A DNA stretch of 64,000 bases from Octopus vulgaris (Eukaryota), in assembly GCA_951406725.2 (NCBI GenBank), contig OX597817.1, positions 129,518,001 through 129,582,000 of the forward strand, read 5' to 3'. A program made the position numbers and the translations under genes. Each line of letters begins with the position of its first letter. Position 1 is the stretch's first letter. Shown here one piece after another: positions 32,224 through 44,142 of the stretch. A model generated the notes under the pieces. That model saw nothing but the letters and a program-made list of their open reading frames with translations, searched no databases and was not told where the DNA came from.

Positions 32224-33535
32224 GTAAGTTGATATACAAATCATTTATTTTTTATCTTTCATTTGTTTCAATCATTGAACTGCGACCATGTTGGGACCCC
32301 ACTTTAGAGGGCTTTATTGAACAAATGAACACCAGTAATTATTATCTGTTTTTAAGTCTGCTACTTTAGTCGATTTCTTTGGCCCTGCCGCTAAGTTACA
32401 GGAGCGCAAACAAACCACTACTGGTTGTTACGAGGGGAGGATCAGAGCACAAACACATACGCACACACATACTCAAACACACAAATAAATGTGATAGATA
32501 GATAGATAGATAGATAGATAGATAGATAGATAGATAGATAGATAGATGGATGGATGGATGGATGGACGTGTGGGCGGGCAGACAGACATACAAACAGACA
32601 GACAGACAGACAGGCAGATAGATAGATAGATAGATAGATAGATAGATAGATAGATAGATAGACAGACAGACAGACAGACAGACAGACAGACAGACAGACA
32701 GATAGATAGATAGATAGATAGATATATAGATAGATAGATAGATAGATAGATAGATAGATAGATAGATAGATAGACAGATAGACAATTCTTTTATATCATT
32801 GGTGCGACATTTTAGCCAAAGTATATTGACAAGACAGGATGACCTTGTTTTTAAAAATGTCATAAGTTAGACCACGAGACAAAGAAATGCTTTGTGTCCA
32901 TATTAGGATAATGTGGAAATATATTTCGATAGAAGGATGTTTTATATTCTTTCATCCACTTCCAGATACAAACCCGGTCTACTAACGAAAACACCAATTT
33001 GTAGAAAGACGACATTGCACACCCATACACAAACACACTCCACATGTGCACGCAACCACACACTAATACAAAGCAACATATATTTATTTGTTCTGATCTA
33101 ACCGACTATATACCCTCTCTCCCTATAGTATAATAGACTCATGCTTGTATTTTTGTCATGGTTATTATCATAGTTGTTGTCATAGCTGTTGTTGTTGCTG
33201 GCACAGTTGTTGTTGTTGTTGCTGTTGATGTTGTTTTTGTTTAATCGCAGTTTAGTCCTGATGAAGTACATCTAAGATCACATAGGCTTCCACCAATAAT
33301 TATCCCGTATTTTTTTTCTTTCAGTATATCAAGATCTACATGAACTAGTTTGTCTTTATTTTAATATGATAGGGCTTTGATTTCTAGTACGCTGCCATAT
33401 AGGGATTCGCTCAATAGGCATACATCTGAACTTCTAACTTCAACTAGTGAATAAATATGTCTTATTAATTCAATAATTGTAGTCTTTACTTTAAAAAACA
33501 TTTTGTTTCTTTTCTTTTTCTTTTACCATTTTCAG

Positions 33536-33577
33536 CTAGTTCCAACGATACAGCTTTTCACCCTGAAGCCGCTTTAA
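33536..33577 (+). CDS. Micro-exon 13 (42 nt, cassette copy 1); TSSNDTAFHPEAAL
   Basis: Long pyrimidine tract + ttttcag, gtaagttggt donor; one of 5 paralogous exons. Confidence 0.85.
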   Translation, partial: LVPTIQLFTLKPL

Positions 33578-34629
33578 GTAAGTTGGTAAATATATGTATG
33601 TATGTATGTATGTATGTATGTATGTATGTATGTATGTATGTATGTATGCGTGTGTGTATGTGTGCGTAAATTTATGCTTAATAACAAATTTCACTGTAAA
33701 AATAATTTCACGTGTTCATCAAAGAATATATTTTATGCTATTTAATATAGTGGCTGTAACGAAAATTGCAAGACATACGAGATTTTAAGAAACAGACTCA
33801 GCATGTATGTATGTATGTATGTCAACAAATACGGGATCCTAATACTGGACAGATTCCGCTAAGTGAACATCTAAAATTATGGGCAACAAAAAATCACCAA
33901 AATTCCTTCTCACTTAACTTTTGTTCTGTAAAAAACAAGATCAAATACACACACACACACACACATACACACACGCACATGCGCACAAACAAGCTGCTTG
34001 CGGATTGGTCCAAACCGTATACCAAATCGTTAGCTTGGAGTGTTCGAAGAGGTGTTACAGTTCTCAGGAACTTAACTGTTAATTAAATACATTTTGAAAT
34101 GTGATGATTACTAAGAACTTATGAAAGCACTAATTGATCTTTATATACATTACAAATGATCTTTTAATGTTAAAATACCATAATAAAAAAGGTGAAAAGT
34201 AGGCCATGTTTTAACTTTATTCAGCTGTTATATTATTCTACACACATTCACACAAATTCGGAATATATATATATATATATATATTTACATGCACATGTAT
34301 ATATACATACACACATACACAAACGCATCATCTTCCAGCTTTTTACACATCTTAGAAGAAAAAGAGAATATGGCCTTGACTCCATAAGGGTCAATCGCTA
34401 TAAAACGAGACAGCCAGTTATACCAAGATCTACATGGACTACTTTATCTTTATTTTAATATGGCAGGAATGTGATTTCCAGGACGCTACCATATAGGGAT
34501 TCAATCAATGGGTATACACCTGAACGTCTAACTTCAACTAGTGAAAAAGTATTTCTTATTAATTCAATAATTGTAGTCTTTACTTTAAAAAATATTTTGT
34601 TTCTTTTCTTTTTCTTATACCTTTTTCAG

Positions 34630-34671
34630 CTAGAGTCGATGATACAGCTTTTAACCCTGAAGCCGATTTAA
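34630..34671 (+). CDS. Micro-exon 14 (42 nt, cassette copy 2); TRVDDTAFNPEADL
   Basis: ctttttcag acceptor, gtaagtcggt donor. Confidence 0.85.
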   Translation, partial: LESMIQLLTLKPI

Positions 34672-40474: not shown

Positions 40475-41513
40475 TATGTTGGTAAACATACATATGTATG
40501 CGTGTGTGTATGTGTGCGTAAATTTATGCTTAAAAACAACTTTCATTGTAAAAATAATTTCACGTTTTCATCAAAGAATACATTTTATCCTATTTAATGT
40601 AGTCGATGCAACGAAAATTACAAAAGTCAAACGAGATTTTGAGAAACACACTCAGTATTCATAGGCAACAAATACGAGTTTCTAATACTGGACAGATTCC
40701 TCTGAATGAACATTTAAACTTAAGAGCAACAAAAAATCGCCGAAATTCCCTCTCACTTAATTTTTGTTCTATAAAAAAACAAGATCAAATACACACACAC
40801 ACGCACACACACACACACACACACACACACACACACACACACACACACACACACACACACACACGACCAAGCTGCATGCGGATTGGTCAAAACCGTATTC
40901 CAAAACTTTAGCTTGTTGGAGCGTTCTAAGAAGTACTACAGTTGTCAAGAACTAAACTGTCAGTTAAATACATTTTGAAATCTGATGATTACTACGAACG
41001 AATGAAAGCACTAATCGATCTTTATGTACGTTACAAAATATTCTTTTAATGTTAAAATACCATAATAAAAAAGGTGAAAACCAGGCCATGCTTTAACTGA
41101 TATATCATTCTATACACATTCGAACAAATTCGGAATATATATATATATATATATATATATATATATATATATATATATATATATATATATATATATCACA
41201 TGTATATATGCATACACACATACACACACTTATTATCTTCTTCCAGCATTTTACGCACCTTAGATAAAAAAAGAGAATATGGCCTTGACTTCATAAAGGT
41301 CAATTGTTATAAAATGAGCCACCCAGTTATATCAAGATTTACGTGAACTAGTTTATCTTTATTTTAATATGGTAGCGGTGTGATTTCCAGTACGCTACCA
41401 TATAGGGATCCGCTCAATAGGCATACACCAGATCTTTCAACTAGTGAAAAAGTATTTCTTATAAATTCAATAAAAATATTTTGTTTCTTTTCTTTTTCTT
41501 TTGCCCTTTTTAG

Positions 41514-41555
41514 CCAGTTCCGACGATACACCTTTTAACCCTAAAGTCGCCAAAA
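41514..41555 (+). CDS. Micro-exon 17 (42 nt, cassette copy 5); ASSDDTPFNPKVAK
   Basis: gccctttttag acceptor, gtaagtt donor. Confidence 0.85.
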
Positions 41556-44142
41556 GTAAGTTACTCTTTACTCTCTTACTCTTTTGCTTGTTTCAGTCAT
41601 TTGACTGCGGCCATGCTGAAGCACTGCCTTTAGTCGAGCAAATAGACCCCAGGACTTATTCTTTGTAAGCCTAGTACTTATTCTATCGGTCTTATTTGCC
41701 GAACCGCTAGGTTACGGGGACGTAAACACACCAGTATCGGTTGTCAAGCGATGTTAGGGGACAAACACAGATACACAAACATATACACACACATACATAT
41801 ATATATATATATATATATATATATATATATATATATATATATATATATATATATATATATATATTATATTAAATTAGAGATAAAACCACTACTAGACAAA
41901 TCAAATAGTGAAAATCATAAGCCAATACATAGCAATAACATTAATTTTTAAAAAATATTAAAAAAATATAAAATATAAATATATAAAAATCCAATTAAAA
42001 TATTTAAATTAATGTTAAAATTCTAAAAAATTATTTAAATTATTAATTTAAACTTATAAATTATAAATATATATATATTTTTATTATTATTTTATTTAAT
42101 TATTTATTTTTTTATATTTTTATCTTTATTTATATTTTTTATTTATTTATTTATTTTATATTTTTATATTTTTTATATTTTTATATTTTTATATTTTTTT
42201 TTTTTTTAAACTATCAAAAAGTATCAATAAGATAAAGAGTAAAAACACTAAGATCGTTTCATACCCGTAACCAATTCGAATAACAATAATTTAAATTCAA
42301 TTAATAATTCATAGGCAACGAATACGAAATCCTAATACTGGACAGATTCCTCTCAGTGAACATTTAAAATTATGTGCAACAAAAAATCACCGAAATTCCT
42401 TCTCACTTAAGTTTTGTACTGTAAAAAAACAAGATCAAATACACACAAACACACACACACACACACACACACACACACACACACACACACACACACAAAC
42501 ACACACACACACACAAACACGACCAAGCTGCATGCGGATTGGTCAAAACTGTATTCCAAAACTTTAGCTTGTTGGAGCGTTCTAAGAAATACTACAGTTG
42601 TCAAGAACTAAACTGTCAATTAAATACATTTTGAAATCTGATGATAACTACAAACGTATGAAAGCACTAATTGATCTTTATATACATTACAAAATATGCT
42701 TTTAATGTTAAAATACCATAATAAAAAAGGTGAAACCCGGTCATGTTTTAACTTTTTTCAACTGATATATCATTCTATACACATTCAAACAAATTCGGAA
42801 AAAAATTATATATATGCACATGTATATATACATACACACATACACACACGCATCATCTCCTTCCAGCATTTTACGCATCTTAGATGAAAAGAAGGAAATG
42901 ACCTTGACTTTGTAAGGAGTGTGCTGAAGAGAACTGTCTGCAGCCAATAGTTCATTTATAGATGTACGTTTACTCATATTAAGGAGAACCCTTAAACCTA
43001 ATGCAAAGAAAACTTGTTACATATCTTTTATAAGATATGTAAGATATGTTCAACTTAATCGGCAAGATATCTTACGAAGTTAAAATCATATACATCACAT
43101 GACGTTTTAGATGTAAACATATTTTAGGTTGAATGTTTATGTAGGTATTTCGGAGAGAGAGTTTGGTAATTAAGACAAAAAAAGACATTTAAATGTTTGG
43201 CTGGATTATATATCACATCGTCACACTCTCCAGATATTATCCGGTAAAATGTGTTTAATCTATTTAAACAAATGAAACGGAAAGAAGTTGAAGCACTCAC
43301 CCAAACGTTTGTTGATACTTGTGAAAATTTTGGAATATTCATGAAACAGATATTCATGAAACAGTATAATTTTCATATAATTAAAGGGTATCTCTATATA
43401 TAAGAATCGGAATTCCTAGTACAACTGAAAGGCGTTATAGAAAAAGGTAAATATTCAAGGCGTTGATCAAACTAAGTCTACAGAAGAAGACACTTTTCAA
43501 AAATAACGCACAGTAGAACACAGAACCACATCACTACGACGTTACTTTCTTAACTGCTGGGGCATATCTGGTAATTTATATTGTCAATAGTAACTGAATA
43601 ATTTAAGGTACATCTTTTTGTGCCCTCACGGTTTCATGGACTCAATTCTATATGGCCTCTGCATCTTCAAGAACATCAAGACTATTTTCTTCGTGTGGCC
43701 AGTACTAATCTTGATTTCTGATGTTGACAAAAATTTTCCTGTTTGTGCAAGCTAAAAATTAATACGCAAAGTACCCATGCTTTGTAAGGTAATGATTAAT
43801 ATTGATTTCTAGCATTTACAAAATATTCTTATATTTGTAAGACAATAATTCATACCGAGTTATAAAATTTACAAAAGATTCATCTCATTCTAAATTAATA
43901 TTGATTCAAAAGAAAGAAAAAATGTTGTTTAAGGCAATGATCCGTAATGATGAACGAAAGGCAGCAATTTTTTGTTCGGAATATAATTGAATTAATCAAG
44001 AGCCTGAATTCTTTGAAATTAAAATGTACAGTGACCTGGCAGCTCTATGATCTCTATCTCTCAAAGTCATCAAAGAAATACTTTGTATAAATTATTATAA
44101 ATTGTATTTATTCTCTGAATTGACTTAAGCTATTTCCTCCAG

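What the first reader, a model, noticed from the sequence alone, without database searches (positions are those of the whole stretch)
33325..42915. Exon birth in progress: five tandem cassette copies with rapidly diverging 14-aa peptides
Seen: five duplicated intron-exon-intron units each keep a 42-nt exon and intact splice sites: TSSNDTAFHPEAAL, TRVDDTAFNPEADL, TRVDDTAFNPDAAL, TSFVDTGFNPEAAF, ASSDDTPFNPKVAK. By eye most exon substitutions change amino acids, and only copy 1 has the NDT sequon, while flanking introns are highly similar (copies 2 and 3 nearly identical). Inference: expansion by unequal crossing-over with relaxed or diversifying selection; copy number could be polymorphic.
Basis: partly seen in the sequence, partly recalled or inferred. 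Interest (0 to 1): 0.75.

Follow-up and report, generated by a model that had tools for sequence, protein, structure and literature searches.

The report
Octopus micro-exon gene with copied exons
Five side-by-side copies of a tiny exon sit in a long octopus gene predicted to encode a floppy, acidic, likely secreted protein, and the copied exons differ about 2.5 times more than the introns around them, likely because selection kept them distinct while the introns were partly homogenised, a pattern already known from parasite mucins.

Summary
There are five ~1.1-kb intron-exon-intron units, found nowhere else in the genome search, each with an intact 42-nt phase-1 exon. Letters specific to copies 1-4 also appear in public runs. 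The host is an orphan octopus gene with at least 43 candidate short phase-1 exons (about 770 aa, acidic, predicted disordered).

Exons vary at 21 of 42 sites against 109 of 552 intron sites (P=5e-5; P=0.005 counting clustered changes once), mostly in copies 4 and 5. But 76% of changes are nonsynonymous against 75% expected neutrally, so dN≈dS and positive selection is not shown. Copies 2 and 3 are near-identical only across a ~670-bp tract ending inside the exon, which fits gene conversion. This is exon duplication, not de novo birth, and the array is not very young.

A younger array upstream in the same gene has eight identical 72-nt exons while flanks vary (0/72 vs 62/568). The architecture matches schistosome SmPoMuc and micro-exon genes without homology. 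Splicing, secretion and copy-number variation are untested. The scan noted fast-diverging duplicated exons in other octopus genes too.

The parts
33536..33577 (+). Copy 1, 42-nt phase 1-1 exon; the only copy with an N-x-T sequon; absent from database model P0001
34630..34671 (+). Copy 2, 42-nt exon; in model P0001
36376..36417 (+). Copy 3, 42-nt exon; 36-nt duplication of the pyrimidine-tract region just upstream; in model P0001
   Evidence: the 36-nt duplication is also in contigs of runs X1 and X20
39979..40020 (+). Copy 4, 42-nt exon; 5 private changes; in model P0001
41514..41555 (+). Copy 5, 42-nt exon; 7 private changes; in model P0001
33325..42915 (+). Array of five intron-exon-intron units starting at 33325, 34419, 36129, 39773 and 41328; introns between copies 1052, 1704, 3561 and 1493 nt
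33991..34660 (+). Likely gene-conversion tract shared with about 35690-36406; begins beside a (CA)n microsatellite and ends inside the exon (10/670 mismatches, then 31/331)
40027..40480 (.). SINE-like dispersed repeat inserted 6 nt after the donor of copy 4; same insertion after copy 5 (about 41562-41785, truncated); the two share 2 rare variants and have 9 private ones each
37340..39600 (-). Retroelement with a GIY-YIG endonuclease (Penelope-like, inferred) between (TA)n runs of units 3 and 4; limits approximate
   Evidence: PF01541, E=2.4e-7 at 37964-38326
21681..21830 (+). Largest host-gene exon (150 nt, His/Ala/Thr-rich, three sequons); used to find model P0001
594..30358 (+). Upstream candidate phase 1-1 exons of the host gene: 594-626, 6060-6107, 10193-10234, 11655-11687, 15179-15193, 16048-16086, 16495-16533, 21681-21830, 23075-23113, 25678-25716, 27313-27354, 30317-30358 (4 of these 12 are in P0001)
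   Evidence: predicted from sequence, not shown in RNA
44143..61412 (+). Downstream candidate phase 1-1 exons: 44143-44190, 45352-45393, 53704-53733, 59042-59068, 61362-61412 (the first two are in P0001)
   Evidence: predicted from sequence

Best explanation
Five tandem copies of a 42-nt in-frame exon and its flanking intron lie inside an orphan octopus gene of short phase-1 exons predicted to encode an acidic, disordered, likely secreted protein, and the exon copies have diverged about 2.5 times more than their introns, likely because selection kept or drove them apart while gene conversion partly homogenised the introns. Shown: the five units, intact splice sites, frame symmetry, the exon-over-intron excess, the mosaic history of the units, and the lack of homologues or folded domains. 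Inferred: because every exon is phase 1-1 and a multiple of three, any copy can be added without shifting the frame, so the gene grows by unequal crossing-over between microsatellite-rich introns. It has done so at least four times (this array, a 15-exon array upstream, and two old exon pairs). The five 14-aa modules are most likely spliced in series as part of an extended Asp/Ser/Thr-rich chain in an extracellular matrix, mucus or gland secretion, following an N-terminal block of S-x-E phosphorylation-type repeats that looks strongly constrained.
For: Exon 21/42 variable sites vs intron 109/552 (Fisher P=5e-5). None of 429 42-column intron windows exceeds 14 variable sites. Base composition does not explain it (8.7 expected). 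Nonsynonymous changes: 16 observed vs 6.7 expected at intron rates (P=0.0016). Sister copies 4 and 5 share the SINE insertion on one side (20/228 differences) and the closest upstream flank on the other (17/314), yet differ at 13/42 exon sites (P=1e-5; as 9 events P=0.003). Trees differ between intron blocks, and the copy 2/3 tract ends inside the exon. Older pairs in the gene show the same trend: 16048/16495 exons 19/39 identical with the stretch around them ~69% identical; 6060/10193 acceptor flanks 77% identical with barely alignable exons. All 43 hand-picked candidate exons are AG-GT, phase 1-1 and join into 768 aa without a stop: 35% Ser+Asp+Glu, 38 S-x-E motifs, 18 sequons, no hydrophobic 19-mer above 0.82. 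The upstream 72-nt exon is invariant in 8 copies while flanks vary (0/72 vs 62/568, P=0.001). That argues the gene is functional and that exons here are not generally hypermutable. Database model P0001 joins copies 2-5 in series; its predicted structure is disordered (pLDDT 0.41).
Against: dN≈dS in the exon: 16 of 21 changes nonsynonymous vs 75% neutral (P=0.57), and 5 synonymous changes vs 2.2 expected (P=0.08). The excess rests on copies 4 and 5; copies 1-3 alone give 9/42 vs 67/552, P=0.09. Changes cluster (5 adjacent same-lineage pairs in the exon vs 4 in 552 intron columns). If clusters are single events and conversion has cut intron divergence by about 30%, significance is lost (P=0.10-0.16). 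The stretch was singled out for looking divergent. The invariant upstream block also covers 40 nt of downstream intron, so conversion may contribute there. P0001 looks like an unvalidated prediction: it skips copy 1 and 8 of the 12 upstream window exons and ends in an unlikely terminal exon. No signal-peptide exon or true last exon was identified. The 43 exons were chosen partly for being in frame.
Confidence: 0.55

Rival explanations
1. Neutral drift plus gene conversion: the exons evolve without selection on the peptide, and the apparent acceleration comes from intron homogenisation, clustered multi-base mutations, possibly a lost donor copy, and the choice of a striking case.
For: dN≈dS. 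One clear conversion tract and conflicting block trees. Clustered changes. Significance is lost under worst-case corrections (P=0.10-0.16). Three changes also sit in the last 14 intron bases before copy 5.
Against: Conversion has no reason to spare a neutral 42-nt island within a 1.1-kb unit, yet all three intron blocks on both sides sit at 19-22% variable sites and the exon at 50%. The copy 4/5 excess holds against the shared SINE alone (9 events/42 vs 20/228, P=0.026). All five copies keep splice sites and frame.
Confidence: 0.3
2. Isoform generator like schistosome micro-exon genes: the five copies and the other symmetric exons are skipped combinatorially or used one at a time, giving a pool of variant secreted proteins for a recognition or host-microbe interface.
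For: All 43 candidate exons are symmetric and 41 of 43 are 72 nt or shorter. Model P0001 omits many intact-looking exons, including copy 1. Fast exon change fits an interface protein (PMC4350168, passages).
Against: No splice joint was seen in the one RNA-labelled run laid, which read as unspliced DNA. P0001 has copies 2-5 in series. Introns of 1-3.5 kb impose no steric exclusion. Eight identical upstream exons fit a dosage repeat better than a variability generator.
Confidence: 0.2
3. Assembly artefact, or pseudo-exons inside a duplicated intronic repeat.
For: No transcript evidence was obtained. Parts of the unit attract many short matches from elsewhere in DNA runs.
Against: Copies differ by 2-13% and carry distinct insertions. 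Copy-specific letters occur in runs of three studies: copy 4 letters 4 of 4 in X18, copy 3 letters 6 of 6 in X18 and 6 of 7 in X19, a copy-4-like contig 11 of 16 in X20, the copy 3 duplication in X1 and X20. The exons fit the phase and composition of their single-copy neighbours.
Confidence: 0.05

Closest known systems
Schistosoma mansoni polymorphic mucins, SmPoMuc (PMC2576457, passages read)
   Same: A short exon and its flanking introns repeated in ~1-kb genomic units with microsatellites; introns homogenised by gene conversion while exon differences persist; the authors infer selection on exons and cite the same pattern for spider silk genes and fungal SOWgp.
   Different: No sequence homology found. 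SmPoMuc is a multigene family with a 27-bp exon, up to ~20 repeats and intron identity above 93%. Here it is one gene, a 42-nt exon, five copies, 87-98% identity in the scored intron blocks and every exon copy different.
Schistosome micro-exon genes, MEGs (PMC4350168, PMC10526429, passages read)
   Same: Coding region built mostly of short symmetric exons in long introns; transposon-rich surroundings; fast coding change; poorly annotated by automatic pipelines.
   Different: MEGs have 10-20 exons, mostly 15 bp, proteins under 190 aa, a signal peptide, proven exon skipping, and appear restricted to flatworms. This gene has at least 43 candidate exons of 15-150 nt and about 770 aa; signal peptide and skipping are unshown.
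Snake venom PLA2 genes with accelerated exons (PMC7285919, passage read)
   Same: Introns more conserved than coding exons, with all codon positions changing at similar rates, as here (dN≈dS, both above intron).
   Different: Whole-gene paralogues of a folded toxin; here repeated exons within one disordered protein, with no toxin homology found.
Disordered proteins assembled from symmetric exons by internal tandem duplication (PMC3632108, abstract read)
   Same: Phase symmetry plus intrinsic disorder allows modular growth by internal exon duplication.
   Different: A human genome-wide trend; the abstract does not address exon-over-intron acceleration.
Acidic S-x-E phosphoproteins of mineralised tissue, SCPP/SIBLING type, and molluscan acidic shell-matrix proteins (SCPP features recalled; molluscan proteins from bioRxiv 10.1101/2021.07.10.451900, passages)
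   Same: Acidic, low-complexity, many S-x-E motifs at the 3' ends of short duplicated exons.
   Different: No homology found. SCPP introns are phase 0 (recalled) and these are all phase 1. Tissue and secretion unknown.

Membership tests
SmPoMuc-type exon-intron tandem array (architecture) | Exon plus flanking introns repeated in ~1-kb units with microsatellites | tested here: met
SmPoMuc-type exon-intron tandem array (architecture) | Introns homogenised by conversion while exons differ | tested here: met
   tract 10/670 vs 31/331 and conflicting block trees; exon 21/42 vs intron 109/552; homogenisation weaker than in SmPoMuc
SmPoMuc-type exon-intron tandem array (architecture) | Repeat number differs between individuals | not testable with these tools
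   only fragmented contigs were available
SmPoMuc protein family | Sequence homology | tested here: not met
   no relative of P0001; no Pfam family above cut-off
Schistosome MEG | Coding region mostly very short symmetric exons | tested here: met
   43 of 43 candidate exons phase 1-1, 41 of 43 at most 72 nt, though longer than the typical 15-bp MEG exon
Schistosome MEG | N-terminal signal peptide | tested here: inconclusive
   no convincing first exon; an assembly gap lies 2.7 kb upstream of the first candidate exon
Schistosome MEG | Isoform pool from exon skipping | tested here: inconclusive
   no spliced contig seen in the one RNA-labelled run laid
Schistosome MEG | Homology and restriction to flatworms | tested here: not met
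   the source names P0001 an Octopus vulgaris protein; no homologues
Mutually exclusive exon cluster (Dscam type) | One copy per transcript | tested here: inconclusive
   model P0001 joins copies 2-5 in series but is a prediction; introns over 1 kb; no RNA evidence
Positively selected coding region | dN/dS above 1 | tested here: not met
   16 of 21 changes nonsynonymous vs 75% neutral; pairwise pN 0.06-0.30, pS 0.10-0.35; only about 10 synonymous sites
Positively selected coding region | Nonsynonymous rate above the local neutral (intron) rate | tested here: met
   16 vs 6.7 expected, P=0.0016; 13 events P=0.02; not significant for events if the intron rate is raised 1.4-fold (P=0.16)
SCPP/SIBLING phosphoproteins | Acidic with S-x-E motifs (recalled feature) | tested here: met
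   38 S-x-E motifs, net charge -104 in the 768-aa candidate chain
SCPP/SIBLING phosphoproteins | Phase-0 introns and homology (recalled feature) | tested here: not met
   all introns phase 1; no homologues

The most novel reading that the evidence does not exclude
This is a cephalopod counterpart of schistosome micro-exon genes: one ~140-kb orphan gene with over 40 freely skippable exons that yields a combinatorial pool of secreted isoforms. It has a frozen phosphoserine-repeat block that changes by copy number and a block of 14-aa modules under diversifying selection at an interface with microbes, parasites or mates.
Probability: 0.2. Interest if true: 0.72.

Novelty: new member of a known kind. 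Interest (0 to 1): 0.42.

Why it matters
The locus shows several ages of exon duplication in one gene: units 99% identical, units 5-13% diverged, old pairs at about 70%, and possible dead copies. Two arrays behave in opposite ways, one with frozen exons and one with accelerated exons. That gives a built-in control for whether fast-diverging duplicated exons reflect selection, mutation or intron conversion. It also exposes a large, mis-annotated, lineage-specific octopus protein (database model 307 aa, candidate chain about 770 aa) that may be a matrix or secretion component. The mechanism itself is already described in schistosome mucins and silks.

Tried and rejected
Homology: Pfam gave nothing above cut-off. 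Searches at near and longer lengths found only P0001 itself or nothing; proteins shorter than 168 aa were searched only with the 49-aa exon (87 aa and up). The 50%-representative search gave 2 hits, P0001 and P0002 (E=4e-4). P0002 was rejected as a chance match to a 15-aa repeat in an unrelated 708-aa protein. The ESM Atlas gave no feature hit and only TM≤0.31. No paralogous gene was found elsewhere in the genome. One search hit a dispersed repeat through a coordinate slip and is uninformative.

Expression: no RNA holder listed. The one RNA-labelled run laid read through intron and showed no splice joint. Neither is evidence for or against expression. Copies 4-5 were not examined with reads, and copy 1's exon was skipped next to repeats.

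Mechanisms rejected: base composition or transition bias as the cause of the exon excess (9 transitions, 12 transversions); an A-to-I editing signature (1 of 21 changes is A to G); one unequal crossover as the source of the copy 2/3 identity (about 330 bp of the unit is not young); independent SINE insertions in units 4 and 5 (same site, 2 shared rare variants), although the two SINEs are no closer to each other (about 91%) than to the best unlinked copies.

Gene ends: signal-peptide and terminal exons were sought without a convincing result. 203 of 215 long open frames in 464 kb were scanned against Pfam: only transposons, a TPR gene, a bHLH gene and weak repeat hits.

Literature: searches listed no paper on this gene or on an octopus micro-exon gene. 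Only listings were seen, and no supplements were read.
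Full report
Observation. The five exons are at 33536-33577, 34630-34671, 36376-36417, 39979-40020 and 41514-41555, each 42 nt with AG/GTAAGT ends and open in phase 1-1. The window is G000:C4:129518001-129582000, and a search with the 266-bp unit head gave five matches in the 2.8-Gb genome, all in this array. The units are a ~1.1-kb core altered by microsatellite growth, a 36-nt duplication (unit 3), a GIY-YIG retroelement between units 3 and 4, a SINE-like insertion 6 nt after the donor in units 4 and 5, and loss of part of unit 5. 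Contigs of four public runs from three studies were laid on 33325-34990. They carry letters specific to different copies: near-exact copy 1 and copy 2 pieces, copy 3 letters (6 of 6 and 6 of 7 listed variants), copy 4 letters (4 of 4; 11 of 16 in another run) and the copy 3 duplication. I used only the variants listed in that table, 16 of the 23 for the X20 contig. One run may be the source of the assembly, but not all. Copy 5 was not tested.

Host gene. The 150-nt exon at 21681 retrieved one protein, P0001 (307 aa), named by its source a hypothetical Octopus vulgaris protein from this same contig. It maps exon by exon from 40 kb upstream of the window to 45.8 kb and joins copies 2-5 in series, skipping copy 1. 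Scans of 464 kb gave 43 hand-picked candidate exons between G000:C4:129446412 and 129585922. All are AG-GT, multiples of three and phase 1-1, and they join into 768 aa without a stop: Ser 14%, Asp 11%, Glu 10%, Asn 10%, 38 S-x-E motifs, 18 sequons, 5 Cys, no membrane-like segment. Frame was part of my selection, so this is not independent proof of splicing. No homologue or domain was found, and the Atlas model is disordered. A convincing signal-peptide exon was not found; a 100-N gap lies 2.7 kb upstream of the first candidate exon. A TPR gene on the minus strand about 81 kb into window coordinates probably bounds the gene downstream. That S-x-E is the Fam20C kinase site is recalled, not tested.

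Exon against intron. In gap-free columns, 21 of 42 exon sites vary against 35/181, 26/121 and 48/250 in three intron blocks (109/552; P=5e-5). No 42-column intron window of 429 exceeds 14, and base class predicts 8.7. Merging adjacent same-lineage changes leaves 16 events against 105 (P=0.005). The excess is uneven: copies 4 and 5 hold 12 of the 21 changes, and copies 1-3 alone give P=0.09. Copies 4 and 5 are sisters by the upstream flank (17/314) and the shared SINE (20/228; two rare shared variants), yet differ at 13/42 exon sites.

Selection. By hand count from the alignment, 16 changes are nonsynonymous and 5 synonymous. Intron rates predict 6.7 and 2.2 (P=0.0016 and 0.08), and a neutral nonsynonymous share of 75% against 76% observed. 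The exon-over-intron excess does carry weight. Two of the five synonymous changes adjoin nonsynonymous ones and two are at CpG sites, so the data fit selection with multi-base changes, but they do not require it.

Conversion. Units 2 and 3 differ at 10 of 670 positions from 33991 to 34660 and at 31 of 331 thereafter (P=1.5e-8, breakpoint chosen after looking), and trees from the three intron blocks conflict. A single unequal crossover would leave a whole unit length young, and about 330 bp is not, so one conversion tract from the (CA)n repeat into the exon is simpler. Conversion lowers intron divergence. With the intron rate raised about 1.4-fold and clusters counted once, the excess is no longer significant (P=0.10-0.16).

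Internal control. Upstream, at G000:C4:129446412-129483422, the same gene holds 15 related exons ending in an acidic S-S-E motif: one of 60 nt, eight of 72 nt and six of 66 nt, mostly in ~5.2-kb units with long blocks 95-99.8% identical. The 72-nt exon is invariant across 8 copies while 62 of 568 flanking columns vary (P=0.001); the invariant block also covers 40 nt of downstream intron, and four of the copies are almost identical throughout. The 66-nt exon varies at 2 of 66 sites, both nonsynonymous, against 10 of 119 in short flanks. Duplicated exons in this gene are therefore not generally hypermutable, and one array looks constrained or homogenised while the focal one looks accelerated. 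Two older pairs (6060/10193 and 16048/16495) have flanks more alike than exons.

How it works. Phase symmetry lets each exon be copied without breaking the frame, and microsatellite-rich introns supply misalignment and conversion (inferred). The product is most likely an extended, phosphorylated and glycosylated extracellular chain in which the 14-aa modules follow each other (inferred; confidence 0.55). Rivals are neutral drift with intron conversion (0.3), a skipping-based isoform generator (0.2, partly compatible with the best explanation) and artefact (0.05).

Comparison. SmPoMuc genes have ~1-kb exon-intron repeats with microsatellites, converted introns and distinct exons (PMC2576457, passages). 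MEGs are built of short symmetric exons, are secreted and evolve fast (PMC4350168 and PMC10526429, passages). Venom PLA2 genes show introns more conserved than exons with all codon positions changing alike (PMC7285919, passage). Symmetric exons and disorder go together in human genes (PMC3632108, abstract). This locus works like these and belongs to none by homology. Searches listed no paper on it; some searches served to find analogues. Earlier notes of this scan report fast-diverging duplicated exons in other genes of this genome; I did not check them. None covers this place or sequence.

Verdict. Real, and a new member of a known kind; interest 0.42. Splicing, secretion, tissue and copy-number variation remain open.

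Noticed in passing
G000:C4:129446412-129483422 (loci L038-L042), upstream of the window: Second, younger exon array of the same gene: 15 related exons (60, 72 and 66 nt) ending in an acidic S-S-E motif, mostly in ~5.2-kb units with blocks 95-99.8% identical. The 72-nt exon plus 40 nt of downstream intron is invariant in 8 copies while flanks vary. The unit count could be affected by assembly.
   Followed up: yes
window 5951-6107 and 10082-10234; 15961-16220 and 16414-16659: Two older duplicated exon pairs: the first with 77% identical acceptor flanks and barely alignable exons of 48 and 42 nt, the second about 69% identical overall with exons 19/39 identical.
   Followed up: partly
window about 56110-56160 and 56570-56625: Two exon-like stretches resembling each other and, weakly, copy 1, but lacking a proper acceptor or donor: possible dead exon copies. 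The score against copy 1 (36.5) is only modestly above that of unrelated exons sharing the donor motif (25-29.5).
   Followed up: partly
G000:C4:129583570-129583605 and 129585884-129585922 (L006): Two candidate last-region exons each with a pair of cysteines, which might link chains by disulfides; no terminal exon found.
   Followed up: partly
L007:7248-7673 (minus) and L028:1446-2234 (minus): Nearest recognisable neighbours: a TPR-repeat gene downstream and a bHLH gene upstream; useful synteny anchors.
   Followed up: no
G000:C4:129443630-129443729: 100-N assembly gap 2.7 kb upstream of the first candidate exon; may hide the signal-peptide exon.
   Followed up: no
window 59449-61038: About 580-bp inverted repeat (92% identical arms, 59546-60128 and 60404-60982) with a further 69-bp arm pair.
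   Followed up: no
window 7368-8072: Mariner-like transposase remnant (PF01359, PF13358) in an intron of the host gene.
   Followed up: no
window 45670-45792: Terminal exon of database model P0001; compositionally unlike the rest and probably a prediction error, since further phase 1-1 candidate exons follow at 53704 and beyond.
   Followed up: partly
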